This document shows, in pieces, positions 4,230 through 64,000 of a stretch of 64,000 bases of DNA. The notes under the pieces are model-generated. The model saw only the letters and a program-made list of their open reading frames with translations. It had not been told where the DNA came from and ran no database searches. The DNA is from Cycas panzhihuaensis. Its lineage: Eukaryota > Plantae > Cycadophyta. Each line of letters starts with the position of its first letter. Positions within the stretch are counted from its first letter, which is position 1. The stretch covers positions 59,775,741 to 59,839,740 of the forward strand of contig CM041465.1 of NCBI GenBank assembly GCA_023213395.1. Reading direction: 5' to 3'. Position numbers and translations under genes: made by a program.

Positions 4230-7252
<3,023 letters not shown>

Positions 7253-15804: not shown

Positions 15805-16290
15805 CTAGGAGCCCATTTTTCAAATGACTAGATCCATTGGGAAGTTTCTTTTATTCTTTACATAATAGTATATTTTTTAATCTAATTTGAAGCTATTTTT
15901 TAGGGTTTTAAAGCTAATAAAATTGAGGTAACTAATTTGTCTTAGTTCACTATTTTTAACAATAATAAATTAATATTTTCTGAGTTTCTTTAGCTTAAGA
16001 CATAATAAGGGATCTCTAATCTATATATGATTATTTTTATATCATTCTACAAAATTATAATTTAAATTTTATAGTATTTAAGCCTTGTGGCTCCATTTTA
16101 ATTCCTTGAAAGGGTCCTCATATATATTCATTAATATCTTGAACTCTAGGAATCCATTTTCCAAACGGTTGGATCCGTTGGAAAGAGTTTTTAATATCCT
16201 TCATATTGGAATAAGTTTTACTTTAATATGACATTATTTTGTAGCTCTTTAAAGTAGTTAAAGTTAAGGCTCCTATTTGGTCCTAATTAG
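15805..16290 (+). repeat. Diverged direct repeat (period ~340 bp) in the leader of element B
   Basis: ctaggagcccattttt...gatccattgggaag versus ctaggaatccattttc...gatccgttggaaag; similarity continues beyond these anchors. Confidence 0.6.
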
Positions 16291-17880: not shown

Positions 17881-18325
17881 TGTTAGGGTTAATACTCGTC
17901 ACCTAACCCCCATCTTAAGTGCACACAACTTAAGGGTGAGTTAACGATAAATTAAGTTTATTTATTTTATACTTTATATTATTTTAATGTAATTTGAATT
18001 CAAGGTTGAGGAGGGATCCTACCCTCCTCTTGAATATTTATGTTATAGGGTTGTAAACCTTGGTGTTCATCAATACCATCTCCTTAATAGACATTTTGTA
18101 ATACTCTCTTAAAGATAGATTGAATACAAAGATTATTGTATTTATGCTATAATGAATTGATTACTTGATGTACTGCTCTGCTTTGTCTCCTTGATTCAAA
18201 CCTTCATATATGTGCTTCACATATACATATCACAATTTAAAAAATACTTATAAGAGTTAAGGAGGACACTTAATTAAATACATAAATCAATATTAAACAT
18301 TATGTTTTAACAAGCCACAACTTAA

Positions 18326-30100: not shown

Positions 30101-30421
30101 CCATACCAAATCATCAAAAGCAATACACTTTCTCTTATCTAGAGAACCTCCAGATATGGGTGCTAAAATAGCATAAAACATGCCCAGATCTACTTTGCCT
30201 AACCCAATTTTATTTAACAGGGTCAATAGTCTTTCATTCACTGCCTCATTAAGTTGAGTGTTCCAGTGATTAAAGCATATGGAAAGCACTTTTCTATACA
30301 TCTTCATAGCTTTTTTATAAATGCCCACATCTCTAAACAAGCTCCCAAGATTATATAAAACATCCATGTGATCAGGCTTAAGCTCTATGGATTTTTGAAA
30401 CTCTTATATAGTTCTTTCATC
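30101..30421 (-). pseudogene. Captured, internally deleted fragment of a plant EF-hand/TPR protein gene (At1g05150/At2g32450-like)
   Basis: DERTI*EFQKSIELKPDHMDVLYNLGSLFRDVG...NHWNTQLNEAV|NERLLTLLNKIGLGKVDLGMFYAILAPISGGSLDKRKCIAFDDLVW matches two separate parts of that family as recalled from memory; not database-checked. Confidence 0.8.
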
Positions 30422-30717
30422 CATTATTAAATAAGAATATGAGCTAGAGAAATGACATCCAAATAACCACATAAGATCTTGAAGAGAGAAGAAAATATAG
30501 AATGATTCCTCTTTATAGTCATTGAAGCTTATTAATGCTACTAGAACGTGTTCTACTTCCACAATATAGTCCTTGATCATCAAATCAGTTCCCTCTATAT
30601 CCTTCAAGGGTACTAAAGTCCATGCATAAAGAAGATCGGTGCGTATTATAAATGTGTGAAATCTTTCTTTTACAAAAATAGCCATGGCAGCATTTGCTAT
30701 ACCAAGTGAACTCTTGA

Positions 30718-30830
30718 GGATCATGGTGTAAACAACCTTTCTATTTGTAATCATGGATTCAATCAAAGATGAAATCTTAAGGATCGTGGTGTAAACAACC
30801 TTTCTATTTGTAATCATGGATTCAATCAAA
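30718..30830 (-). repeat. Frame-preserving 63-bp tandem duplication (LIESMITNRKVVYTxILK twice)
   Basis: Visible in both the DNA and the ORF track. Confidence 0.95.
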
Positions 30831-33800
30831 AATGTGACTTCTAAGTCATTTGCCATTAATGCAATGCTCCTTCTTTGGTTAAATAAAAAAATTTGTATCT
30901 CCAATAATAAAATTTATTTGAAGACATGAGATACTTAAATATCAACTTCTTGTAATTTGACCAAAGTAGGTCTAGACTTATCATCTATTCCAAGGCTAGG
31001 ATTCATCTTCCCAGGCTTTGGTTCATATGATGTGTTATGATCAAGAATTGATAAAATCATTCCCGCTGTGTCTATCATGCAACTTGCTTCAACTTTAAAC
31101 TCTAAATGATTTGATAGAAGTGAATTATTAGACATATCTACAATTTGCTTTTCAGTAATAATGCATTCAAATTCACTTTCAATTTCTTTTGCAATAATAA
31201 AATGAGGAATGCATGATGAATCTTCAATATCTTGAGTTACTTCATTACAATCACCAATGATTTCATTACATTTAGCATGTTCATCAATTGTCTTAATAAT
31301 CCATTTAGTAGATGCATATTCAACAATAATTTCTTTATCAAATTGACATTCATTTTCATTGTCTTCAATACAACATTCATCAATAGTATTTTCTTCATCC
31401 TTTCTTACTTCAGTTTCAAATTCTTTATTACTTGTTTCAGAAATCTCTTTAGAAGCCTTTTTAGATGCATCTTTCAAAATGTTTCAAGGTTCTTTAGCAA
31501 TACTAGGATGACGAACTACAAGAATAACAAAATGATGTGTAGAAAAAAGAGCATCTTTATTTAATGCAACAAGAATAACAACAATTACTGTACTATCATT
31601 CTTCTTAAACTTTTCTGTTTCTTCATTATCAGTAAGAACATTATATCCATTAGTAACAATTTTCCATAACATTTTGTACAAGAATATACTTTTCATTCTA
31701 ATTGCTCAACAAAAATAGTTTGTCTCTTTGTACTTAGGTAAGGGAAAGGGTAAGTCCTTTAAATAATACTCGTTCCTTTCATGTATAAATATGACTACAT
31801 CCTCCTCCTCCATGGTTGTAAGTATGAATTACTCAAAAATGCATACAATAACTTAATCAAATCGACAACTCTCAAAACTACATATAATCAGATAACATCA
31901 GACAATTTGTGATATGACCTCTTTTCACCTTCAGTCTCACAATTTTGAACTTACCTTTCCTTTTTCTGACAAGTTTCAATAAACTTGAAAGTAATTTGTG
32001 ATAATTGACTTTCCTGAAACAACCATACAACTAGGAGAACACATGAAACGGTAGTTTGAAAATAGTAATTGAACATAAATTCAATGCCATCTTCTAATTG
32101 CTATATTAGAGCAACATTAAGAGTCCTTACTATAGTTGGTACCTTCCTATTGTGTCTAAAACTAGTATCTATTTTGCATCGTTTCCTCAAAGTTCTTATT
32201 GTCACCTTATGTAAGCCTTCCTCCTATTGGAAATCATTCCCTACAAACATCTTTCACTTCATTAGCCATGATGCTATTGAATTTTGGTTGTCCATGAGTT
32301 GTTTGGGCAGATTGCAACTTCTCACATGCTACAAAAAAATGTTATTGTTCTAGGATGAGACCAGGCTATTCAAAATATATACAAAGATGCCACCATAGGA
32401 AAAAAACTTCTTCTAAATGGGCCACACCTCTCAAAGTCACAAAATTAATAAGGCTACTAATATGTGGATTTTTAGCTAATCATACCATAGGAAGAGTCAT
32501 CTTTGACTAATAAAAAAAGGAAAGACTTGATCTGTGCTCATCAAGGAGCACCTAATTTGAGGAAAAATATCATTCTAGATAGCAACTCATCAGAGACAGT
32601 ATAAAAAGGGCATATCCAAGCACCACAAACATTTTACTCTAGAGAAAAGAAGATCAAGATCTGAACTTAGAAACCAACTGGCACCAATCCACATTGAGAG
32701 AAAAAAAACCTAATAGAACAATCCCACTCTAGTTGCTACTATAGAAAATGCACTGCTCTGAAGCAAACAACGGATCGAAAAATACCATTTAATCTCTAGA
32801 CTTCTTGAATCTTCAATGGTTTGACACCCTAGTTGCTCTTTGAGTCATATCCTAGCTTTTGGTCCTTCGCCACTATTTGTGCATATACAATCTGTGGTCC
32901 TGCCCTATTTCATTGTCTTTTCATCAATCTCCAATGGCCTCTACTTGTGTCCCAAATCGAAAACCCCAACTAGGCTATTTTAGTCCCTCTTACACATCCC
33001 AAATGGGCGTTGTCCTATCTCCCAACACGTGTACTGTCTTTTAGAGAACAAGAATGAGTAGTGTTCTAAATTCACCAGAGTCTACAAACTAACTTCAATC
33101 TTCCATGTTCATACTCCCTGCGCTCGCATTTTCACATGATAATTACTTGCCCTTTTTTAGCGATCTCTATTCTATCTCTCTAAGCTAAGGGAATGAATTG
33201 CCCTTCCAACCTTTCATCATGAAACCCTGCAAATAAACCTCAGAAGTGAAACCCAAACGAAAACGAAATGCTAACAAGCCACGATTCTTCAAAATTTTAC
33301 AAATCGTTGTAGAAACTTGAATAGGGACATATATGCCACTGGCTGTGTTGATTCGAGGTCCAAACCAGTTGTCTCAGCCTTCAAAACCCTTTATCGCCTT
33401 GGAGATTCATCTTTTTGAAGCCATAGATTTGTTTTCACAAAGGCTTTAATACCGTGTTGGAAATCTTAATATCATACCATACACGAAATCATTGTGAACA
33501 CAAAATAGAAATGAGTCATTGAATATGATCTTCTACATTAAGGTGATTTACATGAGTATGTATTTATACTACTTGGTCACCTTTCAATCGACCAATTACA
33601 TGGCGTGACCATTACAACCACAACTATGGGTACATCTTAATAATATATTTTAATATTCTTGAATATGTTAAAGGTGACCCCTTTAACATATTCACCACTT
33701 TGTAATACTAATATTATCCTTAGACCATTTAACATTAGACCCCATAGACATTACTACTAAAACATTAAACATTATTTTTAACAATTTTATGGTTCATAAC

Positions 33801-43637: not shown

Positions 43638-46600
43638 TGTTAAATTTTAACATGGAAGCATTCAACATCAAAACACTATCAACAGGGTCAATGAATAAAG
43701 CATAACTTATATTAATTCAACATAAGCAGATTACATCAAAACACTAAAGCACCATAGACTCAACATGAGTCTCCATGATGACTTTCTTACATACTCTACC
43801 TCAACCACCTATTTATACAACATAGGTGGGAGACAATACAAGAGATGTGACACGTGGGACAAATACCTCTGACCTAACCAATAACACTTCACCAACCTAT
43901 TAATCAATGACCTTCTGACTTCCCACATAACATTATTATAATGCATGACCCTTAGACCCTAATACCTAGGACTATAACTCTATTGACTATAGGACACACT
44001 TTACATAGAACATATATACATTAAACATTATATTCTAACACCTCCCCTTAATGTTTAATGTTGAGACAACAAGAAGACTAAGGACAACATGACACCTAGT
44101 GCTAAGCACTGACAAGACTGACACAAACCGGACATAAGACTTGACTTGAAGAGTTGTTTGAATTTCCAATGCTTGAGTTTTGGAACTTTCCTGAAGATGA
44201 TGTTACAAGCCTGATCTTCAATCGAAGTGCTGTAGAACCTATATGTGGAGCACATTCTGTTATCTCATGCTTCTTGTTTGGTGACTCCTCCTGCATATTC
44301 CAACTGCGGGTGTGGTTTCCCTTGATTTTTGTTTCCTAAATCAAATGAGATAACATCTATCAAAGGAAAGGAATCTTTCTTGTTTGTCTTTAAATCTGTC
44401 AAGATGATCAACTCCTCAAGCCAATGAGTACTTCCTTGAAAGGAAAGGAGGAACAATGATTCCTTTCCTAACTGCACCTGTGCAGGACCATATCCAGAGC
44501 CAACAAGATGCTTTGTGCTCTCTAAATCATCCAAGAAATTCTTTGTGCCAAATATGATGAAGATTTCCATTATGACTTCATGCACATATTTCCCAATTAT
44601 GGCTACACAAAGCTAGAACATCACTTTGACATGATTGAATTTCATGGTTAAGTAGCCTACCCAAAACACACAATGATCTTGATGTACAAGATTTTGATCA
44701 ACTGAAATTCCAATTATGTTATTTCTTCCTTTGAATGAATATTCTAAGTTCATTGCAGGGTATGCTAACATAATTTGGATTCTTTCAAAAATAAGAACTG
44801 AAAATGCAATTGAATTGAATGTGATCATAGAGAGTCTCATGCATGTGCAAATAACCATATGTCCTAGCATCATTTAAACCCTGGCAACAAATCTATCACC
44901 ACAAATTAAGGTAATATTGCCCACATTTTCCACTAAGGTACCTGTGTCTCCATGAAGTACCACCCGGTGTTTGAAATCACTTTCGAATTTTTCAACTTTC
45001 ATACTTTCAGCAATTTCCAACGCAATCTTTCCTGTCATTATGCCGAGGTTCAAGGTGATTGATGAGATCAAATCTTCATCATATTTTAAGTGAAAATCAT
45101 CAGACCCCTTTCCAGGGAAAGGTTCATGCAACCCTTCATGAATATCAAATAAGTCTTTATCGGAGTTAAATTGATTTTCCCCTCTTACTTTCATCTTCAG
45201 TTTCTTTTTCTGGTTCTTTGTCTTTCTGATAATCTTTTGTACTTCTTCAGGACCCTTTTCATGCACTTCCCTTAACAAATTCCAAGCCTCTTTAACTGAA
45301 TCAATGTTTTGAAGTGTATGAATAAGGAATTGATAAAAAGGAGGAATGTTTTTCCTATCAAATACTGCAAACATTACATCAATAACAATTCTATTCCTTT
45401 TTCGGAAATTTTCCTCCCCTTCTTCATTAATTGATGTAGGATCATCAATAATTTCTCATAATTTTTTAAACACAAATATGCTTTCCATTTTAATTGCCCA
45501 AAAATGGAAATTTGTTCGTATATACTTAGGTAAAGGGAAAGGAAGATCTATCAATCAATATTCATTTATTTCTAATACAAAAACAATAATGTCTTTCAAC
45601 TCCATGATGTGAGAGAGAGTTGAGCAAGAGAACATTACCCAAAGTTTAAGTGTCCATCCAACATAGTCAGATCAAAGTCACTTACCAAGGTTTACTTTCT
45701 TTCTTTCCTGCAACTCAAGTATCTCTACCAAATAACTTGTCCTTCTTGCCCTACTGTCAATCAATGAATCTCAATATTGACACTGATAACTTTAATTCAA
45801 AGCTTTCCCTTACTTGCCCATTACATGCAGAAATATAATCACCTTGTATCACCATTGAGACATTACTTCATCACCAACAAAAGAATCATATTCACTTTGA
45901 AGAAATACTCATAAAAATCACTTAATGGACCAACACCAAAGGTAGTAATCCTTAAACAAAATGAGAAGTTATAAAGGGCTAGATATATCAAATATCAATA
46001 TCCAAACATACCAACCGCGCCTTAATATCTTAATTATGATTAAAGGGGGTGAAATTCTCCTTGTTGGTTCTGTTGCGGACCCAACCAACTCATTCACCCT
46101 AATTAAATTTGATTCCAACCTTTAGAAAAATATCGAGGCATTCCAATTCAAAACCCTACCAATTATGAGGCAACAGTTGAAACTCTCGATCGACGAATGG
46201 TGAGGCAACGTCAGCAATTCTTCGATGGTACCTGCACGCACCAAATACAGATCTCGTGGTCTCTTCGACTCAGGACAGGCGGAGGGCGCAGAACTGTTAC
46301 AGGTGTCACAGTCAATGGAAGAGCAAGCTCGAGATTATAAGAAGTGGCTACCAGCCGAATTTGCACACACAGAACTGCACAATAATTTACAAGCCTATCC
46401 CATTCAGGTATGTCAACTCCTCCTCTGGTTCTATGTTCTCTATCCAAGGATTCCAATGTTAAATGGCTTTGGGGTGCTCTCCCAATAAAGAGACAGAGAT
46501 TGTTGAGAACCCTTTACCTTGTAAACTAGTGGCAGGAAGACAAGTCTCCTTCCAAGACTCCAAAACAGAAATGGCAATTTTTTGGTGCACTACGCATGAT

Positions 46601-47942
46601 TCATCCATGTCTAACATCAATGATTCAAAGACTCTATCGCAAGACTTTCACAAAGGTGGCACAGATTCGTCTTGCAACTCTAACAAGGGAAAGGGGCAAT
46701 GGATCCAAAAGCTACAAAAGGTTGATTGGTTGGATGCAATTCTTGAATTCTCAAAGAGACAAAAACCTTGGACAATACTACGGGCTGGACAACTATTATT
46801 CAGATTATGTTTCTTTGGTTCTTTGCTTTCTGGTTTGTCAGATCCTGGATAAGTCCTTTTGTGGCTCGTGTTATTGGTTTCAGCAAAGATTCTCTGACAT
46901 ACAAGGGCCAAGCTTTGTACAACCTTGTGACAGATAGTGCAAAAGAATAGAAGAATTGTGATAGACGAAGCTCCGGGAGGACATCAATTCAGTAGGCAAT
47001 TTCTCATCTCAGGCACTGGCTCTCTTACTTCACAACTCTAGACAAATCTCAAGCGGTTTCAGCTTATGTATATTGTTCTTCATCTCATTCACAAAAGGAT
47101 CAGGGTGCATATCTTACCATGGACAACCTCCTTTTCCATGCATAACTTATGGCAAAATTTCTGAGAAACAATATTGAATGAATTTGGTAACTACCTCCCA
47201 ATTTAACCAATTAACTCATCAACAAACCCTAACAGGTTTCAGATCTTTACAGAATTCCACAACATTACTTTCTTCATATCACCCGTAATTTCAGTCATCT
47301 ATCACAAACTTCATCATCTTTTCCTTATAACTAGCTAAGGGAACAATATTACCCAATTCATATTTCTGTCATCCCAATACTTTGGCACACCTTGTATTAA
47401 TGATGACCTGAAACTTCACCTTCTCAATTCAAATCTTCAATCTGGCAGCCATCCTAATAGAGTCATCTTCCTCCCTTATCATAGAGGTAGCAAACCTGCA
47501 CAACTATAGCCTTAACAAAAAAACCTGCTCTGATACCATGTTAAATTTTAACATAGAAAGTATTCAACATCAAAACACTATCAACAAGATCAATGAATAA
47601 AGCATAACTTGTATTAACTCAACATAAATAGATTACATCAAAACACTAAAGCACCATAGACTCAACATGAGTCTCCATGATGACTTGATTACATACTCTA
47701 CCTCAACCACCTATTTATACAACATAGGTGGGAGAACATACAAGAGATGTGACACGTGGGACAAATACCTCTAACCTAACCAATGATACTTCACCAACAT
47801 ATTAACCAATGACCTTATAACTTCCCACATAACATTATTATAATGCCTGACCCTTAGACCCTAATACTTAGAACTATAACTCTATTGACTCAAAGACACA
47901 CTTTACATAGAACATATATACATTAAACATTATATTCTAACA
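43638..47942 (-). mobile_element. Gag-only cargo-carrying LTR element G: LTRs 43638-44040 and 47539-47942
   Basis: Paired ~403-bp TG...CA LTRs; perfect iMet PBS gctctgatacca (47527-47538); PPT aaggggagg; perfect TSD tcctc/tcctc. Confidence 0.97.
44055..45605 (-). pseudogene. Gag N-terminus plus mosaic extension of element G
   Basis: MELKDIIVFVLEINEY*LIDLPFPLPKYIRTNFHFWAIKMESIF, one frameshift, then ...DSVKEAWNLLREVHEKGPEEVQKII; ORFs ending at 44874, 44613, 44265 and 44055 are all in one frame. Confidence 0.8.
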
Positions 47943-50900
47943 TCCTCTTGTTGGATCAATGGTGAAAGCCAAGTAATTGAGTTGTATATCATACTCTCTA
48001 GAGTAAGAGCCAGACAAAACAATTAATGTAATGATTTAGAAAGTGTATTCATTGTTGATTAATGAAATAATAAGTTATGAGAAAGATCTTGTGCAGTCTT
48101 TGTGAATGATGATTGTGTTATGTTTTATGTTTGAGAATGATGCATATGTGATAAATGTTGCATATATCATAAATTGATTTAATGTGCAGCTGACATCAAG
48201 GAATAAGGGGACACAAAATGACTACATTACCAGGCAGTGTCAGGATGTCAATGTGCTAACCGGTTATCAACATTGGTTCCGTTGCTAAATCCCTTGAGTA
48301 GAGAAAGAATTCAAGGCTCGGAAGCAAGAGTGAGTGCATTTTAAAGGATTAGAAGACCTTGGTTGTCATCGAGATGGCAATTTCTACCTAAACCGCGACA
48401 GCCAAGACGCCTTTTGGTGCCACCTATAAAGCCTTTGGGTAGTGGAGTATCGGAGTCAAGCTATTTGAGAGTAATATGTCGGGCAAAAGAAAACAAATTA
48501 AGAAAGGTGCATAAAAGGAGCACAACACCAAAAGGAGGAACTAAGGAGAAGTCCGTTAAAGTATGAAAGAAAGGGGTTAATAACATCCCAAACAACAATA
48601 AGTAAAGGAGAAGATATTGTAACAAAAACAACACTCAACATATCTAACCCAGAGGATATTATGACAATAAGTGGAGATTTTAAACTAGAGAAAAGCCAAA
48701 AGGAGCATAACAGCAACAAGGAAAAGGCAGAAGAAGGTGTTGAGGCAGTTGGGGAGAATTATTTCATAAGAAAGTTGTTCAATACACCACCAAAACTAGG
48801 AGACATAAGGACACAATTAGCAATGCAGATACCAAGGGGGAAGAGGAAACAATCCAAGTGAAAGCTCCAAAGAATAACCCATTGTCTAAGGAGGAAGCAG
48901 AGACAACACGGAAGGAAGGGTTGTCACCAAAAGTTAACATAGTAGGAGGAGGAATGCTGAGACCAAAGACACCTCCCAAGATGGCATCTTCAAGTTGTCC
49001 CAATGAAAGTGCATTTAATCAACTTATATTTGATGGAACCATAGATGTTGTTGAACACTTGTATCTATTTAAGAATATGATTGACATCAAGGAATCATAG
49101 ATGAGAAAGATATCAAAGGAAGATTTGTGTGCACATTAAAAGAAGTACCATTGTTATGGTACAAGGAGTTGTATGCACAAACCAAAACCTAAGAGCGAAT
49201 TTCCAATGAATTCCAAGAGAGGTTTCAAAAGTTACATACCAATGAGGCCATTGTACAAACATTGGAAAATCTCAAACAACAACCAAAGAATCAGTGTTGG
49301 ATTACTCAAGTTGTATGTTCATCATTGTAGCAAATATTACAAGTGGAGAGCACCTTCCAAACATTTTGTTGAAAAACTATTTCATGAATGGATTATGGTG
49401 CAAGTTAAGGAGTGCATTAAAACGACATCCAAACAAATCATTAGCAAAAGCTAAAGAATTAGCCACAACATTTGAGAAGGAGTTGGACTTAGAAGAATTG
49501 GGAACACAAAATAATGTGTTAAAGATGTTGCATAAAAAAAACCAAGGAACTGCATGTGGAGAAACCATAAGGCAATGATGAGAGAGCAATCATTAGAAGT
49601 AGAGAAACAAAGGGAGGAAATTTCACGATTGAAGCTACTAGCCAACTAGAAGAAACCTATGAGGATAAGCCTAAAGTAGTAGAAGAATTGGCACAAGTCT
49701 TGAACCAAAGTGGTGCCATATTTGTGAACAAGAGACGCATAGAACAAAAGAATGCCATTTATAGCCAAAAAATAAGATAACTAAATAATCAAAATGTTGC
49801 CACATTTGTGACATAGCTATGCATATGACAAATGAATGTTTTTATAATAAAAAACAAATAAAAAAAGAGCTAAAATGATGTCACATATGGAACACAAATA
49901 CACACACAACAAAAAACTACGATCATAACTCCAAAGGGAGAAATGATCAAAGAAGAGGTTGAGATAAAGGAAAGGGCTACCAACGCATGTATAACACAAA
50001 AACAACTATAGAAAGGACAAAAAGCTTAAAGATAGCCCCAATGAGTAGGTGTATGTTTTTTTGGGGGGTTTAGGCATTAGTGCTCAGATTGCTCTTATGA
50101 AAAAGCTAGAGACAATAGCACCCATGAATGTGAAATTTGTGGACTATGTAATCACTCTTTAGTAAATTGCTTGCTAAACGTGAGAAAAAGCAACCTTATG
50201 TCAATTGTGCCTCTCACACTCAAAGTCGAAGGATGAGCCAAATTGTTCAAAACCTAAGATGGAAATTGACCGCTTTGTCCCGAGTAAAAAAGGCATTGGA
50301 GGAAACAGCCAAGGAAGTAGAAAAGAATTGCCCCACCTTACCCAAGCCAAAGGTGAAGCAAGTGTATAAAAGAAGAGCATCTCCAAACTAGAGTGAGGTC
50401 ATTGGAGTAAGGAAACCACAAGCAATTGAGACCACACATATCGATGTGGCTAATTTATTCAACAACATTCCCTTGGAAGAAATTTTATAGGTGTTGAGAC
50501 CATTGGAGAATCTATTAGAATAACTAAAGCTAACCATTCCATTGTCATGAGTGATCAAGTGGCTAAAACTCAGAGTATTTGAAGGAGCAAATAAGGTTGT
50601 AGAAGAAATAATGGTAATGAATAACTCCATGAACAAGAGCCCAACCAAGAGTTATGAAAAACTAGAGCGAAGCTTGAACTCTAAAGGTAGTGACAGAAAT
50701 TCCTGCGTACAATTGGTTGCAAAAAACATATGCAATAAATGCACCAAGCACTAATTGTTAAAATATGAAAACTATTCCCAATATGAATCATAATATGGAA
50801 TTTGGAAAACACAAATGATTATTGACAGTGATGAATATTTAAGCATAAGTAGTACTCAGGACTTTTATACTAGTATAGATGAAGCAAAATACAAGGATGA

Positions 50901-51475: not shown

Positions 51476-53255
51476 AGTTGTGCATCTTATTGTACTCCAA
51501 AAAGGTGGTGACATGTGACTCTCTCCTCTTGGGCCACTTTTGTATTCTTGATGTATAAGTATGTAAAAAGATTCATTCATGTAACGTAATGTTGATCCAA
51601 GTTATTATCTGTTGTCTCTCTTATTTTTAACATAGTATCAAAGCAAGCCTAAAGGGACCAAGATTAGAGGTTTCTAGGTACTGTTTTAGTGTGCAACTAA
51701 AGGGACCACCCAGTGGAGGCTTCAGGGAGTTGGTTTGAACTATACAATCAAATACAGAAGGTCGTGCAGACTGGTATGGAGGCATACAGGTGCCTAAAAT
51801 TCAAAGTGCTCATAACAAAGAAAAATTTTCACAAATTGTGCATCTCATCAAGGAGATCATTTTCTTCTAAAGGCTTGACTGCAAATTCTATCTGCATCAA
51901 CAAGAAATTGAGAAAATTTGAAAACGTGGGTTTGGAGGCTTATCTGCTCTTTTCATTTTGTCTGATCATTTTCTCTTAATAAATCAACATGCATTCTCTT
52001 GTTCTCTATTAGAGCTTCCTTTCAAGTATAGAGTTGATGGATTTAGTCTCAAATTTAGAAAAGTATCAATGTATTTCATTTTCAAACCCTAGTCACCCAC
52101 TGGCATTTCGAAGTTGCTTTTTCTCTGCTCAGATCTAAGAGTGAAAAACTAAACACAGAGCTAGATAGGCAACTAAAAAATCTACATTTTGAGATCCCCT
52201 TCCCCCTAGTCTGCATTAATTTTTTATGTACAATCATATGGTCATAAGGATCCGTACGGTACATGTTGTCAGTACCTCGTTCTTATAGATCACATTCACC
52301 AAATGGCCTCCATCTATTCTCTCTCAAACTCTAATAAATTAATTAGAGCAAATTATATAGGATGGAAAATCGAAATGGAGGACATAGAAGAGGATGAAAA
52401 AGATACAAACTTGTTTACTACACTAGCCTCCAACACTCGATCCAATGAAGGTTGGTTTATAGATTCTGGAGCTTCTCACCATGTGAGTGGTAGGAGAGAC
52501 TGGTTTGAAACACTTCGTCCCGATCTTCTCAATGATTCAATGGAACTCAAAGATAACTCTACCCTCAACGTTGAGGGAGAAGGCACCATTGCAATAAATA
52601 TAAAAGGTGAAATCAAAAAAATTGGTCTTATTCCATTGGTACCAATTTTGAAAAATAACCTTCCTTTTGTATCTCAATTGACTAAAAAGAAACTAAGTGT
52701 AATATTTGATGATAACAATGTTACATTTGTGATAAACAACAGAACAATCTTGTAATTGCAAAAGGTGTGGAGTACAACAAATTATAAACTATATTCTCCC
52801 CTCCTCTAAATTAGTCTCTTTCTATAAGCAACATTTAGCCTCGTATTGTTGAAAATATTGATTAAATCTGGCATTCATGGTATGTATACATTGCAAATGA
52901 TAGACTAGAAAAGTTGAATAAATTGAGTATGGTAATTAGACTTGCAGACATCTCTTTCGAATCAAAAATTTATGAAGGGTGCATGTTGGGGAAACAACAT
53001 AGAGCAAAGTTCTGCTAGTCCACTTGGAAAGCTCATGATGCATTGGAATTGGTACATAGTCACTTATGCAAACCCATATCTCCAAATTTTGTTAAAGGTG
53101 TTAGGTACTTGCACAGTTTTATAGATGATTTTAGTAGGAAAACTTGGGTGTATTTTATTTAGAAAAAAATTGAAGCCTTTGTTATCTTCAAAGAATTTAG
53201 AGCTTGCATTGAGGGAGAAAGTGGAAAAAGACTTAAAGTTCTCAGAACAAATGTG
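51411..53255 (+). mobile_element. Ty1/copia element I (5' part): LTR 51411-51632 with a (CT)n tract, PBS 51633-51644, gag-deleted PR-INT, interrupted by J
   Basis: tgttag...ttaaca followed by tagtatcaaagc; WFIDSGASHH protease; FIDDFSRKTWVYF...KVLRT integrase. Confidence 0.9.
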
Positions 53256-53260
53256 AAAGG

Positions 53261-56200
53261 TGTTAATGCCTAAGGTCATTTGAATTAGAATTAGATTAAT
53301 AAGAGTCATTTCATAACTTAGAAAAAGTGAATCTAATCTAATGCTATAATGCTCACTTAAGTGAAATGCACTTTATATGCATCTATGTAATTTCACTCAA
53401 GTTTCATGTGAATTTGTTTTGGTAAGAAAACCCTAATCAAGTTCTTTTATCAATAAAAGGTGAAATCCAAAGGAATGAGTTAGTGATCTCATCTCCTCTT
53501 TTGAGCCCTCAAATTTGCCTCCTGTATCTTGAGTGCATTCTTGCTCTTGTCTCCATTCATGTTTGCCATTGTGAAGTGTTAAGAGTGGACAACCCAGATC
53601 CATTGCTCCAATAAGTGGTATCAGAGCTTTGTTGTGTTGCCTCGCCACACTCACTTGCAAGAAGACCAAGAAGCAATTTCCTCTCCTTCACCTCTTTATG
53701 TGAAGTGAGAGTTGAGTATTATTTTTTTTTTGCAAATATTTACATGCAAAAGAGCTCTTGTTTTTTATAGAATCTACAAATATTTCTTGTATTTCCCTCA
53801 TATCCAAGTGCAACATTGCAAGTACAGCAAAAAGAAAACCTTGTGCATGCTTTCAGTTGTACATGGAAGCTGATTTAAGGCTAAAATCAGCCAATTTTCA
53901 ATATTTTTTGTAGATCTAAAGAGTATTTGGCACAAAAAGTCAAAAAAAAATCAAAGCGTTCAAATTGCTGCCAAATTTTACAAGTGAAGTAGACTCTGCA
54001 CAGTGATCATTTTTCACTACTAGAGCGACACGGGATTTCGAAGTTAAAGGGGTCAAACAGCCTGTTTTAGGCAGCCATTCTTAAATCTCTTAGGACTATT
54101 TTTCTTGTTGTAATACATGTTTTCGCATCTCCTTGCCCCGATCTATCATTTGGGACAAGTCTCACGCGAATCTGGTGCTCCGTTATAAGTGTTTTTGGGT
54201 TTCCCAATACATTTTGGCCGTGAGCTAAAACATGTCTTTTTGCCTGTTTTTGATAAAATTTTTCAAAAATTTTTATATATTTGTGAAGTCCAAGTGAAGG
54301 GCAACAAACTGAAAATTTTTTATTTTTTAAAATTTTTTAAAATTTGTGCCATACAGCGATACAACAGACGGTACAATCTGCCCAACAACAAACTTGACTT
54401 ACTAAAAATTTGACTTTTCAGCGTACATTGTATTTCTAAAATTTTTATTTTTTACCCTTCATTTCAAGAAAAGAAAAGAAAAAAGAAAAAAAGGGGTTTT
54501 TAATCATTTTTAGGCATTTTTTAAAGGCATTTTTAAAGCAAAAAATGCACAAATATTTTTATACTACCACATCATCTGGATCGGAGCAATATCCAATGAT
54601 GTGGCATTATTCATGTGCATTATTTTTGACACACATGCAAGCTTTTTAAACACATCATCAAGTGCCACATAAGCACTAAGGAGGACACTTCATCATCAAA
54701 AAAGAAGACGCAAGCAAGCACAAAAGTGAAGCATTTATTTTCAGTTGTTATTTTCATACAAGCAAGCGATAACATTGAGCATTATTCCCTAAAATGAACA
54801 CATCTATGCTCGTTTTTTACTGCCACTTAGTGCATGTTTACACACTTGCCTAGGTTGAAAGACCTAGGTTGGCCAAATTCCGGGTCCTAAGGGAGGTGTG
54901 GATTTTTAAATGGGACTAGTCATTAACCGGAATATTGGTGGAGGGACAGGTTAGCCATACCTACGGCCTCCAATCAGAGATTATCTTAATAACCAACCGA
55001 AACAACTGAAACCTTAATCAAGATTAAAATTGGATTGATCCAATATCCGTCATAGCTGTGGGATATGCACGTACCACTCTTCGAAGTAGGTATATCGTTG
55101 CTCATGGTGAACAGGGTGAGGATTGACAATACCTAGGCTCCACGTTGTTTCGGCAGCGGTGCGGGTATCGTAGGTGAAGGCCATTAATCGTTATTACTAG
55201 CAACCCCCCTTAGGCGTCGTAGAGCACCTCACTGACCATGGACTCAAGTTGATGTTAGTGGATTGCACACATCCTACACATATAGTTTACAGTTGTGATT
55301 TGCACCCCTCTTTGCCTGGCAGCTACATAGGCCATATCTTGATTATTTATTTGTACACATCATCATTTTTGTGTATCATATGTGCTTCACACTCACTTTA
55401 TATCCCTATTGCGACAAGTGTACTAGCCACAAGTGTTGGTGGCAAATTTCATTTGCTTGCATATCATATAGACTTCCTTTCTTCATTTCTCATATCCCTG
55501 TTGCGATAAGAGACATTGCCACAAGTGTCTGTGGCTTATTCATTCTCATAGAGCTTGCATCACATTCTCTTTCTTCTCTTCTTCATACACATCACCACTA
55601 TGTAGTCCAACTTCAAACAAAATGTGAATTGCATGCTAAAGGGCAAGGACAACTAGGGCATTTGGTATACAGGCATCAAAAATACATCAAAGTACCAGGG
55701 ACTCTAGATGGATCAAATGGAGCTCACACCTATCGTACCTATTACTGCCACTATAGCACAAACAGGAGGTACTCCACCAATTGCTCCAACAGACCCAGCA
55801 ACTAGACGACAATGGATTCTTGAAGACCAAAAGCTACAAGTACGCATACTATTAGTCACAAACTACTATTTGCATAACCTGATCTACAGCACACAACATG
55901 ACACTGCATATAAAGTTCTCAAAGTTCTAAAGAGAAACTTTGATACTCGATCAGACTTGGAATTTGTTCACATGGTCTTAAAAATAAATAAGATGAAGAT
56001 GCAGAAAGGGAAGGCACATGAGACGGTCGATGCTCTTCGCCCAATCAAACAAGCTATCAACACAGACTTCAAAACACAATACATCACATGGCCGTTCCTG
56101 ATCCAGTCATCACTCCATATACTTGACAACAAAAACTTGTTGGGGAATCTTCAGTGATCTGCCACACTGAAGACATTAGACTTTAAGGCTTTTGCAAAAT

Positions 56201-59200
56201 AGTTCATCGAACATAACAAGACCTTTGCAACAAGCTTCCACTCATCTAATCCACTTCCTGATGTTGCCTTTGAAATCGAAGTGGACGAGGAAGCTTGCTA
56301 TTCCAAACAGTAAGGACAATCAGCGCGTGGAAGACGAAACTCACGTGGTCATGATCAGGGCAAGAACCAAGGACAAAGGCAACAACAACAGAACCCCCAA
56401 AATTTAGGAGGAAAACAAACATTTAACCAAAGATAGTATGGCACTCCCAGCACATCATATGGGACATTAAATCAACCCCTGATATGTGAACGATGTCATT
56501 GTAAAAGACACTTTGCCAAATATTGTCGAACAACTTTTCATAAGCTCAGCAGAAATCGACAACGGCACAATGCCCACAACGTTGATGCAGAAGAAACCTT
56601 TGGTGGGACCCTGTTTACTGAAGCATGCTTGCACAACACAAGGAAAACCAGTTCTTCCACTTCATCAAAAAGGTACATTGAGGCACATTGTGGCTATGCC
56701 ACTTGTCATGTCAACTCCATTATGCCTCAACCTCTTGGAGTAGCAAACACTGCCACAGTCCATTCCTCCACATGGATCATGGATATCGGTACCACACAAC
56801 ACATGACATGTCACCGAGACTACTTTCAAGCCCTTGATACAAATGTCACTGGTCTTGTACATATCGCTGACAAATCAAGCCAACCTGTCGAAGGTATGGG
56901 CACGGTTTGCCTAACACTCCCAGGCTTTTACCAGATTTCAAACTACTTGATGTTTTGTATATTCCCTCACTGAAACAAAACCTTCTCTCCTTATCCACAT
57001 TGGTCTCCCGTGGGTTTGATCTGAGTGTAACAACCAATAACAAAACCCTTCAAGTCATCCACCCTCCTCCATATTCAATGGTGATGACAGGCAAGCTTAC
57101 GGGAAAACTCTTCCACCTGACTGGCACCTCATATGCTACAGCCAATCATGCTCATGATTTTTGTGTTGAACCAAAACTTGCCTATAATGTTACCCTAACT
57201 CACCATAAGTTGTCCAAGGAAGCACTTTGGCATGCGTGAATGGGGCATATCAAGTTAGATAGACTCAAAGAAATCTACCATTACACTCTCGGTTTACCCA
57301 GATTTTCTTCAAAGCCCTTCAAGTGTGAAGCATGTATCATTGCAAAATCCCATCGACAGCCCTTCCCACGGAGTTAATAGAAAGCCAGTCAGCCCCTCCA
57401 GCTTGTCCACTCAGACATATGCGGCCCAATGCCTATACCATCCCTCACCAGGAAATGGTACTACATAACATTCATAGATGACTTCACTAAGAAGGTATGG
57501 GTAACCTTTCTAAAAATAAAGGATGAAACATTCTCAAATTTTCTGACATTCAAGGCCCTGGCAAAGAAGGAATGAGGTTTTCAAATCAAATGCCTTCAAA
57601 TAAATAATGGTGGAGAGTATACGTCTAATGAATTTGAAGACTTTCTTTGCATGCATGGGATAAAACATCAAACAACAATTGCAGGTACCCCTCAACAGAA
57701 TGGAGTGGTTGAACGAATGAACAGAACCATCATGAACATGGCACGAACAATGCTTGTATATAAAAATGTACATGCATATCTTTTGGGCCAAGGCAATCTA
57801 TACAGCAGTCTACTGCCTAAACAATGTAAGTCCATCTCAGCTCGGCCCATCTCCAAATGAGAGATGGCCAGGACAGACCCCTATTGTCAACTACTTTAGA
57901 ATATTTGGCTCTACCTGTTATGCTCATATTCTGGATGAGCATAGAAACAAGCTCCAGCCGCGAGCTTTGAAAGGCATCCTTGTAGGGTACCCAATGAACA
58001 AGAAAGGGTACAAGGTCTTCGTACCAACTCTAAAGAAGATTATTATTTCACAGGACATGGTCTTTGCACAAACAGAATAACATCTCTTGCAGCTTTATTC
58101 CAAAGCTCCCACTCACCGCTACAATGATGTCCAAGAATATGATGTGTAGATTCCAAAATTGGTGGGGGGGAGACATGGAAGAGATACTCAAAATGTTGGA
58201 ATCTGACAATAGAGCCATGGAGGACACAGATTCAACACCAATCAGCATTAATCCAACTCCTTCTTTGGAGAACAACCTTGATTACAAAGGCAAAGGAATT
58301 GCTGAAGGACCCTCGTCACCTTCTTCAGTGGCAGGACCATCGTCCCCAACAGTATCAACGTCCTACATTCCTCAAAACTCTTATGACCATTCCAGGATTA
58401 AAACAAGGACCAAGAAGTTGTGGAAATGAGAACTTCATTTCCAACTAAAGGTTTTCGTGAAGCCTACCTGTTGAACAAGGATCTAAGACCTGATGAGGTA
58501 GGCAAAATCGGCACCCGAAGTGGTGCCCTAAAGGCAAAGGAGCAGAGCACACTTCCCACAGAACTTGAACCGATAGAATTGCACCTTGCCAACAATGAAG
58601 AGCCTCTCACACACCAAGAAGTTGTAAAACATGCAGCTTGGAGAAATGCAATAAACGAGGAATATTAATCCTTGATCAAAAATGGTACTTGGGAACTCAA
58701 AGATCTACCTTTGGGAAGAAAGGTAGTAAGAAACAAATGGGTGTTCAAAAACAAATACAAATCTGGCGGCACCCTTGACACACACAAGGCGAGGTTGGTA
58801 GCAAAGGGATTCACCCAAAAGGAAGGCATTGACTACACTAAGGTCTTTGCACCTACGACTAAATGGCCCACAATCAGAACTCTTGTGGCCTTGGCAACTC
58901 AACAGGGCTAGAAGATTCACTAGCTCGATGTAAAGATAGCATTCTTCAATGGGGATCTTGAAAAAAAAATCTACATGGCTCAGCCTGAAGGATATGAGAT
59001 TGTTGAACAAGAGCATAAGGTGTGTAAACTCATGAAGTCTTTGTACGGCCTTAAACAAGCCCCTCATGCTTGGTTCACCAAGTTGTCAAAAAGAATGAGG
59101 CAACTTGGATATGAGGTTTGTAACTACCAAGATATTGATGCAACATTGTTCATCAAGCATGGAAAAGATAGTCACTTACCTCTTAATCTTTGAGGACGAC

Positions 59201-59441
59201 ATGCTTATAATGGGTAACAGTGAACAGGCAATCAACCAGCTAAAGAACGACTTGGCAAAAACGTTTGAATTGTCTGACCTTAGGTTGATCAAATACTACT
59301 TGGGGATTGAGGTTACTCAAAAAGATGGCCAAATCTTTCTTTCTCAACGATCTTTTAACAAGATTTAAATTGGAAGATACTTGACCAATAGCCATTCCAA
59401 TAGAACCAAACGTCAAACTAATAGCTGATGGCAATGATCGA
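53261..59441 (+). mobile_element. Ty1/copia element J: 5' LTR ~53252/53261-53613, PBS 53616-53627, ~2 kb leader, gag-pol ~55599-59441, interrupted in RT by K
   Basis: Perfect PBS tggtatcagagc; WIMDIGTTQHMT; VHSDICGP; TPQQNGVVERMNRT; KARLVAKGFTQKEGIDY; LYGLKQAP. Confidence 0.95.
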
Positions 59442-62400
59442 TGTGAAAATAGGCCAAAGGATTAGAGTGCCTAAGACCTACAAAGCCAAGATCTTGAAGA
59501 TAGTTCACCTCTAGTTCTAAATGACATAATAGCAAAAACAAAGATAAACAAGATCAAGGAAGCAAGATGATACCAAGATGTGAGGAGAAGGAATTAGTCC
59601 TACTCCAAAGAATACCAATTGATTAGCAAAATGGCAGCATAACATTACACATCAACTCTACATGTGAGACATAAGGAGAGATCTCAATATATAGAGTAAC
59701 TGAGGTTACCTAACACCGTTGGATGTTTGCCAAGTGGCACTTGGCAAATATCCAAGGTACATGCAATGCATGGCTTGCATGTCATGCATGAGGGACAAGT
59801 GTCCATTAGGCTCTCAAGTGAGCAAAAATGCATAAGGGTCCATTTGACCCTTTAGTTACAATGTTATGTCACTAGAATGAAAGTAGGTGTGCACTTTATC
59901 ACTTAAGTGATTAGTCACCCCATAAAGTACAAAATAATGAATGAATGAATAAAGTACATACTTAGCATGTAAACATAAGGTTTAACACCCCCCTTACTGT
60001 TTACAATGTTAAGTCGGCCGCCAAGACCATCTCTGAATTTTACAAATTTTTCTCTACCAAGAGGCTTGGTAAAGAGATCTGCTGTCTGCTCCTCTGTAGG
60101 TCTATACTGGAGGTAGATCTCACCATTCTGCACACGCTCTCTGATGAAGTGATGATACACCTCGATACGTTTGGTCCGTGCATGAAAAATTGGATTCTTG
60201 GCTAACTTGAGTACACTTTAGTTGTCACAATATATCCTGGTGGGGTGATTTTGCTCAAGTCCAAGCTCCCCAAGAACCCGTCGTAGCTAGATAGCCTCAC
60301 AAGCTGGGCTGACAGCAGCTTTGTATTCTGCTTCAGTGGAGGACAAGGTAACATTGGATTGCTTCTTGCAACTCCATGAAACAGCTCCTGAACCAAGAGT
60401 AAAGCAGTAACCCGAGATGGATCTCCGGCTATCCTGACAATCTGCCCAATCAGAATCTGAGAACCCTTCCAAGACAAAGTCCTTATTATGTGCATATTGA
60501 AGACCATGTTGCAATGTTCCTTTGATGTATTTGAGTATGTGTTTTGCTGCATTCCAATGTTTCTGAATGGGTTGAGACATGTATCAAGAACAAATCCCAA
60601 CTGCAAATGAAATATCCGGTCGAGTGTTGGTGAGATAAATGAAGCTACCAATCAACTGTAGGTAAAGAGTGGGATCTACAGATTCAGCTTCCTCATTAAG
60701 AGTAAGCTTTGTTCCATTCTCCATAGGTGTTGGTGCTGATTTGCAATCATGCATCCTGAATCGTTGCAAAATGTCCCAAGAATATTTTGTTTGGGATATG
60801 AAGATAGATCTGGGTTGTTGCCACACCTCAAAGCCTAGAGAATAATGTAGTAGTCCAAGATCTGTCATCTCGAAAGTTTTCTTCAAATCATCCTAGAGAA
60901 TGTGTATCATCTTAGTGTCATTACCAATGATTACTAAGTCATCAACATACAAGACAATAAAATGGCATGGTTTTTCTCAACTTTGATGTACAAGTTGGGG
61001 TCTAATGTGGATCAATGAAAACCATGTTTCGAAAAATAATCCTCGATTTTGGAGTACCATGCTCGAGGAGCTTGTTTCAAGCCATACAAAGCCTTTTTCA
61101 GACGATAAACCAAGTGTTCCTTGCCTTGTACTTTGTAACCAAGAGGTTGTTCCAAATATACCTCCTCTTGAAGATCGCCATTGAGAAAGGCACTCTTCAC
61201 GTCCATCTAATATGCGGGCCATTTACATTGAGCAACTAAAGCCAAGATGAGTCTGATGGTGTTCATATTAGCAACAGGTGCAAAAGTCTCCTCATAGTCA
61301 ATGCCTTCTTTTTATTTGAACCCTTTTGCAACAAGTCGCGCCTTATGGCGCTTCAGTGTGCCATCATAATGGAATTTGGTCTTGTAGACCCATTTGCAAC
61401 TGATTGTTTGTTTATGCTTAGGCAATTCTACCAAATCCCATGTTCCATTCTTTTCAATAGAATGGATTTCTTCATCCATAGCAGTTTTCCAATTAGCATT
61501 TTGAGATGCCTCCTCAAAGGTGGAGGGTTCATCAACACAAAGTACATTAGCCATGAATGCATAATTGGTTTGCTGCCTATATTTTGATGGACGCTTTCCT
61601 TCAATAGTCTGACCGTCTTGAGCAATTGAAGTAAACCCTTTTGGCAAATTTTTAACTGATGTGACTTAAACCTCAATGTCTTCTAGTCTGAGTGATGGAT
61701 CAAAAGACGATGTGCTAGGATCAAGTGGAGTAGTATTTGCTAATGTAGACGGTCCAACTGGTGAAGATGGTGTACATGATGTGGAAGATTGAAAGGAAAT
61801 GAAGTACTCAACAATCTTCTTACCTTTATCAAGAGGAGGTTGAAAGGATGCAATTTCCAACTCCTTACGCTCTTCTTCAGCAAAGATTACATCTCTTGAG
61901 AGATACATTTTTTTTCCAATGGGATCATACAACTTGTAAGCTTTACTATGAATGGCATAGCCTACAAAGATGCATTTTAGACTATGTTTGTCTAACTTAG
62001 ATCTTTGTTGATCGGGGATGTGCATGTATGCAATACACCCAAATGTCCTTAAGTGACTGACAGTTGGCTTCTTACCAGACCATGCTTCTTCTAGTGTGAT
62101 GTCGGCGACTGCTGAAGTAGGACTCCAATTTGTCACATAAGCAGTTGTGCGAAATGCTTCTGCCCAATATGCTCGTATGAGTCCTTTTGCATGCATCATT
62201 GCTTTGGCTTTGTTTTCCAAAGTCCTATTCATACGTTCAAAGACTCTATTTTGTTGAGGAGTATGAGGAGTAGTGAGTTGTCTTCGAATGCCATTATCCT
62301 TGCAGAATTAAGTGAATTCACCTCCATTATCTGACCTTAGTATTTTGATTGTATAGCCAAATTCATTCTCTACTTCAAGCTTGAATTCCTTGAACTTCTG

Positions 62401-64000
62401 CAATGCTCCAGATTTTTGTTTAAGGAAGTAAACCCAAATTTTGTGAGAGAAATCATCTATGAAGGAGATATAGTACAATGCACCAATCATCTATGAAGGA
62501 GATATAGTACAATGCACCTCCAAAAGATGTTGTGGACATAGGTCCACATAAATCAGAATGTATCAGCTGCAAAGGATATGATGCACGTCATGCTTTGCCT
62601 TTAGGAAAAGGCAATCTATGTTGTGTCCCCATTATACAAGCTTCACAAAGGCATTCAAAACCATATAGCTTGCGAGGTCCATGCACCATGTTCTTGTTTA
62701 CCATCAACTTGAGATTGTCTAAACTCAAGTGGCCTAGACGATAATGCCAAAGTTGTATCTTTGTTGATGATGTTGCGACAGAGTAAGCAGAATCAGAAGT
62801 TATGTTATTTGCATCCAACTTATAAAGACCATGGTCTTCATGACCAATGGCTACAATCTGATCATGCTTGTCACTGATAACACATTTTCCATTTTTAAAC
62901 AAAATGCTCATCTGTTGCTTGTCCAATTGGCTAACAGATAGCAAGTTCTTCTCCATGGAAAGAATGCAGTAGGCATCACCACTGGGAAATGTTAAAGAAG
63001 GATTTGAAGAAGAATGAAATGAGGCAACTTTGCCTATACCAGAGGTCTCCACTAATTCATTGTTGCCAAAACTTGCTGATTTACCATTTCCTTCTTTGAT
63101 GTCTTGAAGAAGTTCTTCACTTCTAGTCATGTATCGTGATGCCCCTGAATCGATGATCCAAGTTTGATCAAAGTCTGAAGTATGATAAGCACAACGTAGC
63201 TTATCCTCTGCTGCAAACTAATTTGTGTGGTGTTGATTGCCACCTCTAAAACCCCCCCTTCCTCTTTGACCTCCTCGATATGCACCTCAATTTGGTCGAA
63301 AGGGATATTGTTGTTGTTGAAACCGATGATGTTGTTGGAATTGCTGACGAGGCTGCTGTTGTCTCTGATGTGGTTGTTGTTGTTGTGTATGTTGAAGATC
63401 CGCTTTCTTCTTTCGAAAATCAGGAGCAATGTGGCCAACCTTGCCACAATAATGACAAATAGCATTGGCTTTTGAAGTGTCAATATTCATATTCCCAAAT
63501 TGTTTTGTAAGTGAAGGTTTGGGAGTTTAACCTTCAATTTGGCCGTGAAAGCTCCTGAAATTGATGCAACATTATCATTTTCTTTGTCATAGATTTGCTC
63601 CTCTTGAAGTAACAAACTCTCTAATTGATTAAAGGTCATTGTAGAAAGAGAGCCATCTCGAGTATAGATGAAATGAAGCCATTGAAATCTTTAGGCAAAG
63701 CTCAAACAGTAGTGGTGACAAGTTCATCCCTTGAAGCAGGTTTGCCTAAAGTATTCAATTCATTACAAATTTCTTTAATGGAAGCAAGAAATGCCGACAT
63801 AGGCTTTACATACTTTATTGAATAAAGTTTTTCTTTGACAAACAAAATGCGAACTTCATCTCGTCTTTCATACAAGGGGAACAAAGTGTCCCAAGTTTCC
63901 TTAGAAGTTTCAACATTGGCAATATTTTGATCATCATTTACATCAATAACCATATGCAAAAATGCCAAGGCTATTTCATCCTTGGCTTCCCAAGAAGCGA
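59442..64000 (-). mobile_element. Ty1/copia element K: 3' LTR ~59442-59987, PPT 59988-59995, gag-PR-INT-RT-RH ~60000-64000 with stops and frameshifts; runs off the right edge
   Basis: CHYCGKVGH; WIIDSGAS; LRSDNGGEF; [10 protein letters not shown]; [11 protein letters not shown]; SDSDWA; QTADLFTKPL. Confidence 0.97.
62451..62518 (-). repeat. 34-bp tandem duplication frameshifting the integrase core of K
   Basis: aatcatctatgaaggagatatagtacaatgcacc occurs twice. Confidence 0.95.

What the first reader, a model, noticed from the sequence alone, without database searches (positions are those of the whole stretch)
54849..55240. ~390-nt densely paired, possibly pseudoknotted RNA domain in the leader of copia J
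Seen: a GC-rich island with a GAAA-capped hairpin (cctaggtt-gaaa-gacctagg, 54849-54868) and two TTCG-capped hairpins (taccactc-ttcg-aagtaggta ~55072-55092; gttgt-ttcg-gcagc 55144-55157), each one transition from cUUCGg. There are also short hairpins at 55014-55066 and a long-range stem cctaagggagg 54886-54896 / ccccccttagg 55204-55214. catggt..gtgagg (55103-55121) is complementary to cctcactgaccatg (55227-55240), which crosses that stem. Inference: stable tetraloops plus a pseudoknot suggest a selected large RNA structure (IRES, packaging/dimerisation element or ribozyme) of unknown class.
Basis: partly seen in the sequence, partly recalled or inferred. Interest (0 to 1): 0.75.

Follow-up and report, generated by a model that had tools for sequence, protein, structure and literature searches.

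The report
Twin-loop RNA core in copia leader
In the long untranslated leader of a dead plant jumping gene, three short blocks are shared by far more related sequences than the DNA around them; they are predicted to fold into hairpins that likely help the element's RNA get recognised and packaged, but the proposed pseudoknot is unproven.

Summary
The named hairpins and complementary arms are at the stated places, 1.2-1.6 kb behind the primer site and 360 nt before gag of a decayed plant copia element. In this single copy the 392 nt fold no better than shuffles (z -0.7), and the two long-range pairings are matched by 9-10% of shuffled arms. Contigs from six public runs change the picture. Three blocks (54928-71, 55038-77, 55158-89) lie 82-256, 38-47 and about 8-9 times deeper than neighbouring leader. 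Two carry a UAGCCRU heptamer in a hairpin loop. Most copies in four of six runs close the first UUCG loop as cUUCGg. Against this, a matched single-allele folding test was null. The GAAA loop is nearly private to this copy, the second UUCG cap is subfamily-specific, and most pseudoknot arms are neither extra-conserved nor covarying. There is no Rfam match, and type IV IRES and ribozyme tests were not met. Best reading: a selected cis-acting leader RNA, likely for packaging or dimerisation (0.40). IRES and DNA-level elements remain open.

The parts
53262..53615 (+). 5' LTR of the copia element (left end inferred from a TGT start; no second LTR in the window)
53616..53627 (+). Primer-binding site TGGTATCAGAGC (initiator tRNA-Met type; type recalled, and given as the common copia type in PMC6317226)
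54567..54604 (+).
   Evidence: z -3.7, 0 of 200 shuffles; picked from the scan
54849..54868 (+). Hairpin whose two arms are both the palindrome CCUAGG; 7 stem pairs show no majority change, the loop and closing pair differ in most copies
54872..54939 (+). Nested helices, register uncertain: the MFE register is broken by 3 majority alleles; an 8-pair register 54880-87/54912-19, chosen post hoc, is improved by 2 of 2 but keeps 2 mismatches
54928..54971 (+). Conserved block 1: stem GGAGG/CCUCC with inner hairpin GGU-UAGCCAU-ACC (loop 54952-58); deepest part of the leader
   Evidence: 82-256 times the flank median in 4 of 4 runs; fold
54973..54990 (+). 6-bp hairpin, decayed in this copy; 3 of 3 majority alleles turn two mismatches and a wobble into Watson-Crick pairs (register chosen post hoc)
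55038..55077 (+). Conserved block 2: hairpin 55043-66 carrying the second UAGCCRU heptamer (55053-59; this copy has U at 55057, 61-95% of depth has C)
   Evidence: 38 and 47 times local base in 2 of 2 runs
55072..55092 (+). Hairpin with UUCG loop, closed by C-G in 29-96% of depth; CUC-UUCG-GAG is also kept in copies whose stem differs
55097..55204 (+). 6-bp helix 55097-102/55199-204; candidate two-sided change U-A versus C-G at 55098/55203 (43-61% and 50-78%; unphased)
55121..55189 (+). Long irregular arm with conserved block 3 (55158-89) and a subfamily-specific cap (second UUCG hairpin 55144-57)
   Evidence: block about 8-9 times base; the bin is 0.3, 16, 11 and 3.6 times the flank
54886..55214 (+).
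55103..55240 (+).
55600..59430 (+). gag-pol, broken by stops and frameshifts: gag (start inferred), protease barrel, integrase, reverse transcriptase in copia order; cut by an inserted minus-strand element

Best explanation
Three short blocks in this copia leader are shared by many more related sequences than their flanks, and they likely fold into a cluster of hairpins on the element's RNA that likely serves as its packaging and dimerisation signal. Shown: position between primer site and gag; extra conservation; two hairpin-borne UAGCCRU heptamers in the two deepest blocks; a cUUCGg loop in many copies. Inferred: selection acts on RNA pairing; Gag binds the repeated loops, or two RNAs kiss through them by their central GC, as the twin GACG loops of Moloney virus do; palindromic hairpin arms then extend the dimer. 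Speculative: a donor-like site at 55113-19 and an acceptor-like site at 55535-52 could let the translated RNA lose part of the domain, so that only genomic RNA carries it whole.
For: Depth 82-256 times the flank median at 54928-71 in 4 of 4 runs, higher than the first gag bins (0.6-13 times). Blocks 2 and 3 at 38-47 and 8-9 times in 2 of 2 further runs. Loose ends on both sides of block 1 are diverged but alignable leader sequence, so the depth comes from relatives. CpG is retained. The cUUCGg closure is a motif of the sense strand. Hairpin 54973-90 is improved by 3 of 3 majority alleles. Candidate U-A/C-G change at 55098/55203, and A.C to G-C at 55126/55181. The second UUCG cap is replaced in other copies by sequence that by eye forms another hairpin (loose ends). 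CCUAGG palindromes form both arms of the first hairpin, as Ty1 PAL1/PAL2 form SL1 (PMC6844567, passages). Moloney leader: about 380 nt, two palindromes and two identical self-kissing loops (PMC7357161, passages). Barley BARE is said to have conserved dimerisation and packaging signals (PMC3735527, passage).
Against: The matched single-allele folding test is null: 26 domain alleles rank 0.476 (z -0.43), 17 flank alleles 0.506. Majority alleles break 4 pairs of the MFE helices and the closing pair of the first hairpin. The favourable registers were chosen after seeing the alleles. Most differences are methylation-type transitions, and 55098 and 55203 both sit in a CWG context, so independent decay could mimic the double change; neighbouring decay runs at 9-31%. 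No alleles are phased. The palindromic hairpin lies outside the deepest blocks and its 5' arm is not palindromic in some copies (loose ends). The domain is 1.2 kb from the primer site, farther than the Ty1 signals (first 380-560 nt). TAGCCAT is common here: 13 exact copies on both strands of the window. No binding or dimerisation data.
Confidence: 0.4

Rival explanations
1. The domain is a translation element (IRES-like or shunt) that lets ribosomes reach gag past a 2-kb leader; the UAGCCAU loop would touch the 40S subunit as the hepatitis C virus domain IIb loop does.
For: 20 ATGs lie between primer site and gag in this copy. The block-1 loop is letter for letter the HCV IIb loop UAGCCAU (PMC2760816, passages). 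A pyrimidine tract precedes the gag start. The crossing arrangement resembles in order the HCV pseudoknot core (recalled, not tested).
Against: The domain ends 360 nt before gag, with 2 more ATGs between, and the ATG at 55238 opens only four codons. No invariant apical GGG, no invariant GA[U/C]A tetraloop, no loop E under the UAGCCAU loop. No Rfam IRES model hits at E up to 10. 2 of 13 TAGCCAT copies in the window sit in such a loop, one of them on the minus strand at 62853.
Confidence: 0.18
2. The blocks are DNA-level elements (internal promoter, enhancer or protein-binding sites, TAGCCRT twice), and most pairings are incidental.
For: The conservation is of primary sequence in short blocks. 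The allele test is null. Both strands of the 5' third fold about equally. An earlier unchecked note reports a promoter-like module in another copia leader of this genome (e1-10650802).
Against: The cUUCGg loop, hairpin 54973-90 and the swapped cap point to RNA shape. The blocks coincide with hairpins.
Confidence: 0.18
3. A structured nuclear-export element for unspliced genomic RNA, like the MusD transport element.
For: [quoted passage not shown] Splice-like sites lie in the leader.
Against: No sequence likeness was tested or seen, the pseudoknot here is unproven, and splicing of this leader is not shown.
Confidence: 0.12
4. No selected structure: the depth peaks come from another abundant repeat that shares short words, and the folds are chance.
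For: Whole-domain folding and helix counts equal shuffles. The tool warns that contig depth is no copy number.
Against: Three collinear peaks recur over six runs, and loose ends continue as diverged homologues of the flanks.
Confidence: 0.08
5. A self-cleaving or self-splicing ribozyme of a new class.
For: Size, stable tetraloops and a possible pseudoknot; a loose likeness to a twister ribozyme recalled from memory.
Against: No Rfam model. No hammerhead CUGANGA. The would-be twister cleavage-site adenines are missing and vary among copies. Cutting genomic RNA between primer site and gag would destroy the template (inference).
Confidence: 0.04

Closest known systems
Moloney MLV/MSV dimer-linkage and packaging region (PAL1, PAL2, SL-C/SL-D GACG loops; PMC7357161, passages)
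   Same: About 380-390 nt of leader before gag; palindromes; two hairpins with one repeated loop motif holding a self-complementary dinucleotide.
   Different: Loop motif AGCC, not GACG; the two loops are 100 nt apart and differently closed (7-nt and 4-nt); plant copia; no test of kissing or binding.
Ty1 5' cis region (PAL1/PAL2 hairpin SL1, long-range pseudoknot; PMC6844567, passages)
   Same: Copia-type element; a hairpin made of two palindromic arms; a proposed long-range pseudoknot.
   Different: Ty1 signals lie in the first 380-560 nt and overlap gag; here they are 1.2-1.6 kb past the primer site, wholly non-coding, and the pseudoknot is unproven.
Type IV (HCV-like) IRES (PMC2760816, PMC7354566; passages)
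   Same: UAGCCAU hairpin loop as in domain IIb; about 390 nt; crossing helices near the 3' end.
   Different: No invariant IIId GGG loop or IIIe GA[U/C]A loop, no loop E below the loop, gag start 360 nt away, no Rfam hit.
MusD transport element (PMC5767303, PMC12786077; passages)
   Same: Large folded cis element of an LTR retrotransposon with long-range contacts.
   Different: Mouse element that uses NXF1 export; no sequence relation shown.
Barley BARE leader signals (PMC3735527, passage)
   Same: Plant copia with an untranslated leader and predicted dimerisation and packaging signals.
   Different: No structure was given in the passage seen; the sequences were not compared.

Membership tests
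Ty1/copia LTR retrotransposon | Protease, integrase, reverse transcriptase in that order | tested here: met
   Pfam Pol_BBD, gag_pre-integrs, rve, RVT_2 in order
Ty1/copia LTR retrotransposon | Primer-binding site behind an LTR; two LTRs and a target duplication | tested here: inconclusive
   Primer site at 53616; no second LTR in the window; the 3' end is cut by an insertion
Retroelement packaging/dimerisation signal | Lies in the 5' leader between primer site and gag | tested here: met
Retroelement packaging/dimerisation signal | Conserved stem-loops with covariation | tested here: inconclusive
   Conservation met; one unphased two-sided change; matched allele test null
Retroelement packaging/dimerisation signal | Conserved self-complementary palindrome or kissing loop | tested here: inconclusive
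   CCUAGG three times, in paired stems, and one varies; the AGCC loops offer only a 2-bp GC contact
Retroelement packaging/dimerisation signal | Gag binding, RNA dimer, selective packaging | not testable with these tools
   needs bench work
Type IV IRES | Domain II hairpin with UAGCCAU loop | tested here: met
   54949-61; a variable feature of the family
Type IV IRES | Invariant apical GGG (IIId) | tested here: not met
   Seven GGG runs, in stems, internal loops or linkers; the only apical candidate (54898-902) reads GAG in abundant relatives (loose ends)
Type IV IRES | GA[U/C]A tetraloop (IIIe) | tested here: not met
   The only hairpin-loop candidate (55062-65) loses a base in 30% and 26% of depth in X13 and X17 (12% or less) and lies inside a competing stem
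Type IV IRES | Pseudoknot placing the start codon directly | tested here: not met
   The adjacent ATG gives four codons; gag starts 360 nt later
Known ribozymes and introns (hammerhead, HDV-like, twister, group I/II) | Match to the family's covariance model or catalytic core | tested here: not met
   No such hit at E up to 10; no CUGANGA; a decayed copy can be missed
RNA export element (MTE-like) | Kissing loop and pseudoknot needed for export | not testable with these tools
   needs bench work

The most novel reading that the evidence does not exclude
Gymnosperm copia elements carry a 400-nt pseudoknotted ribosome-entry RNA, shared across families, that has converged on (or taken) the UAGCCAU ribosome-contact loop of the hepatitis C virus IRES and shows it twice: a structured IRES in a plant retrotransposon, of which my ten paper searches found no report.
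Probability: 0.08. Interest if true: 0.85.

Novelty: new member of a known kind. Interest (0 to 1): 0.42.

Why it matters
Retrotransposons make up most of large plant genomes, yet the RNA signals that get their genomes packaged, exported or translated past kilobase leaders are hardly mapped; a 2025 review's export passage draws its cis-element examples from mouse retrotransposons and cauliflower mosaic virus (PMC12786077, passages). A compact core shared by very many copies gives defined hairpins and a repeated loop to probe and mutate in vitro. Ten paper searches listed no description of this element; that library lacks most subscription papers.

Tried and rejected
No whole genome is held, so no alignment of full copies and no covariance model could be made; no second copy lies in the window. 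Pattern scans: viral contigs gave 0, 2 and 0 loci, metagenomes 3, prokaryote genomes 0 and 0. The 5 loci share only the 12-16 pattern bases and short chance matches with the domain. A reverse-transcriptase query in viral contigs found no relative among 7 candidates. Protein relatives: top hit 44% identical, 51% at most on partial cover, so the copia lineage was not assigned. Rfam: nothing at gathering level, chance-level hits only; no tRNA. No RNA holder was listed among 24 runs, which says nothing on expression. The DNA motifs were not found in paper texts or in the 5 supplement files held for PMC6317226; its sequence files and bioRxiv supplements could not be seen and may hold relatives. A likeness of the 3' end to the HCV sequence before its start codon (recalled) vanished once other copies' letters were seen. 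A twister likeness (recalled) was rejected. A 9-of-10 match to the initiator tRNA anticodon arm (tRNA recalled) is expected by chance on a hand estimate. My scripted register for the 55014 hairpin was off by one, so that 5-bp A-U hairpin is untested. Earlier findings held no look-alike.

Full report
Setting. The window is 32% G+C and full of decayed retroelements. The finding lies in a copia element: LTR about 53262-53615, primer site at 53616, a 2-kb leader, then a broken gag-pol from 55600 with protease barrel, integrase and reverse transcriptase in copia order. A minus-strand copia has inserted into the reverse transcriptase. The top protein hit is 44% identical. An earlier unchecked note calls the host a gymnosperm, likely a cycad; I did not test this. 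No assembly was available.

Observation. Every quoted stretch is there. The island is mild: 46% G+C, CpG ratio 0.76. In this copy the 392 nt fold like shuffles (z -0.68, 23 of 100), and so do the helix counts. The 5' third does better (4 of 200 on either strand), and two tetraloop hairpins are unusual (12 of 2000). The two long-range pairings are matched by 90 and 98 of 1000 shuffled arms. On one copy alone, the claim is weak.

Relatives. 20 of 24 listed runs, under 14 organism labels, hold part of 54500-55600. I laid 6 of them, all contigs: four on 54400-55700 and two on 55030-55262. The tables are cut: 40 of 251 differences and 24 of 691 loose ends; 40 rows ending at 55224 and 12 of 57 loose ends. 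Alleles are unphased and depth is not a copy number. Relative depth is still clear. Against the median of 16 flanking leader bins, 54928-71 is 98, 229, 256 and 82 times deeper, 54972-55103 is 3-26 times, and the first gag bins are 0.6-13 times. In the finer call, 55038-77 is 38 and 47 times, and 55158-89 about 8 and 9 times the local base. Short arms in variable context could be invisible to this method. Loose ends beside block 1 are diverged versions of the same flanks, so the core is likely shared across subfamilies or families (inference).

What the core contains. Block 1 is a GGAGG/CCUCC stem capped by GGU-UAGCCAU-ACC, with none of the 40 listed differences between 54936 and 54977. Block 2 is a hairpin with the same heptamer, UAGCCRU, decayed at one base in this copy (61-95% of depth has C). 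The first UUCG loop is closed by C-G in 29-96% of depth, and CUC-UUCG-GAG persists in copies with a different stem. Hairpin 54973-90 gains three Watson-Crick pairs from its three majority alleles. Helix 55097-102/55199-204, found in the single-copy scan, has U-A here and C plus G alleles at 43-61% and 50-78%. The GAAA loop is nearly private to this copy, and the second UUCG cap is replaced in other copies.

Results against. I tested 26 domain alleles one at a time: 20 and 6 further ones at 40% or more in both runs. 55076 and the minor alleles were left out, and three gag rows were left out of the 17-allele flank control. They stabilise the local fold no more than the same changes elsewhere (mean rank 0.476 against 0.506). 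The test cannot see cooperative repairs or pairs beyond 60 nt, but it gives no general support. Majority alleles break 4 MFE pairs and the closing pair of the first hairpin. The good registers are post hoc. Methylation decay can mimic the double change. The pseudoknot has one wobble change and a rival partner, 54893-99/55224-30, improved by one allele. I put the chance of a selected RNA structure at about 0.7 and that of the pseudoknot as drawn at about 0.3 (judgement).

Mechanism. A conserved hairpin cluster between primer site and gag, with a repeated loop and palindromic arms, matches the anatomy of the Moloney dimer-linkage region (PMC7357161, 4 passages) and of Ty1 SL1 (PMC6844567, 12 of 33 passages). 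I therefore favour a packaging and dimerisation signal (0.40); every functional step is inferred. The 20 upstream ATGs demand some way round scanning. The UAGCCAU loop equals the HCV IIb loop (PMC2760816, 2 passages), but the defining type IV features (PMC7354566, 12 of 44 passages) are not met and the heptamer occurs 13 times in the window; IRES 0.18. Splicing to an acceptor-like site at 55535-52, with no ATG before gag, would solve translation without an IRES. A DNA-level element (0.18), an export element like the MusD one (PMC5767303, 5 passages; PMC12786077, 6 passages; 0.12), chance (0.08) and a ribozyme (0.04) complete the list. PMC3735527 (4 passages) and PMC6317226 (12 of 18 passages and 5 supplement files) gave context only. 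All other papers were seen as listings.

Verdict. A real, strongly conserved and undescribed leader core in a plant copia element, probably an RNA structure, of a kind known from retroviruses and Ty1. The pseudoknot and any claim to a new RNA class await an alignment of natural copies. Interest 0.42.

Noticed in passing
window 54567-54604: A 14-bp hairpin upstream of the finding (z -3.7, 0 of 200 shuffles), stronger than any inside it.
   Followed up: partly
window 53680-53920: Folded stretches directly behind the primer site (z about -3 in two of three consecutive 120-nt windows).
   Followed up: no
window 55400-55453 and 55492-55544: A tandem 54-nt duplication (78% alike), each unit with a GCCAC..GUGGC hairpin, between the domain and gag.
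   Followed up: partly
window 55113-55119 and 55535-55552: Donor-like GGGTGAG and U-rich acceptor-like site ending CATAG, with no ATG between the latter and the gag start; a possible leader intron.
   Followed up: partly
window 4200-7250: A 3-kb (AT)-rich microsatellite array, 2-4% G+C in its core.
   Followed up: no
window 59435-64000: A second copia on the minus strand inserted into the reverse transcriptase of this element; its purine tract and 3' LTR begin near 59990.
   Followed up: partly
window 52340-53260: The studied element itself sits inside the integrase region of an older copia.
   Followed up: no
window 43638-47947, 14470-18210, 29505-33783: Three further elements bounded by LTR-like direct repeats of 330-410 nt (93, 89 and 86% alike); none holds a copy of the domain.
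   Followed up: partly
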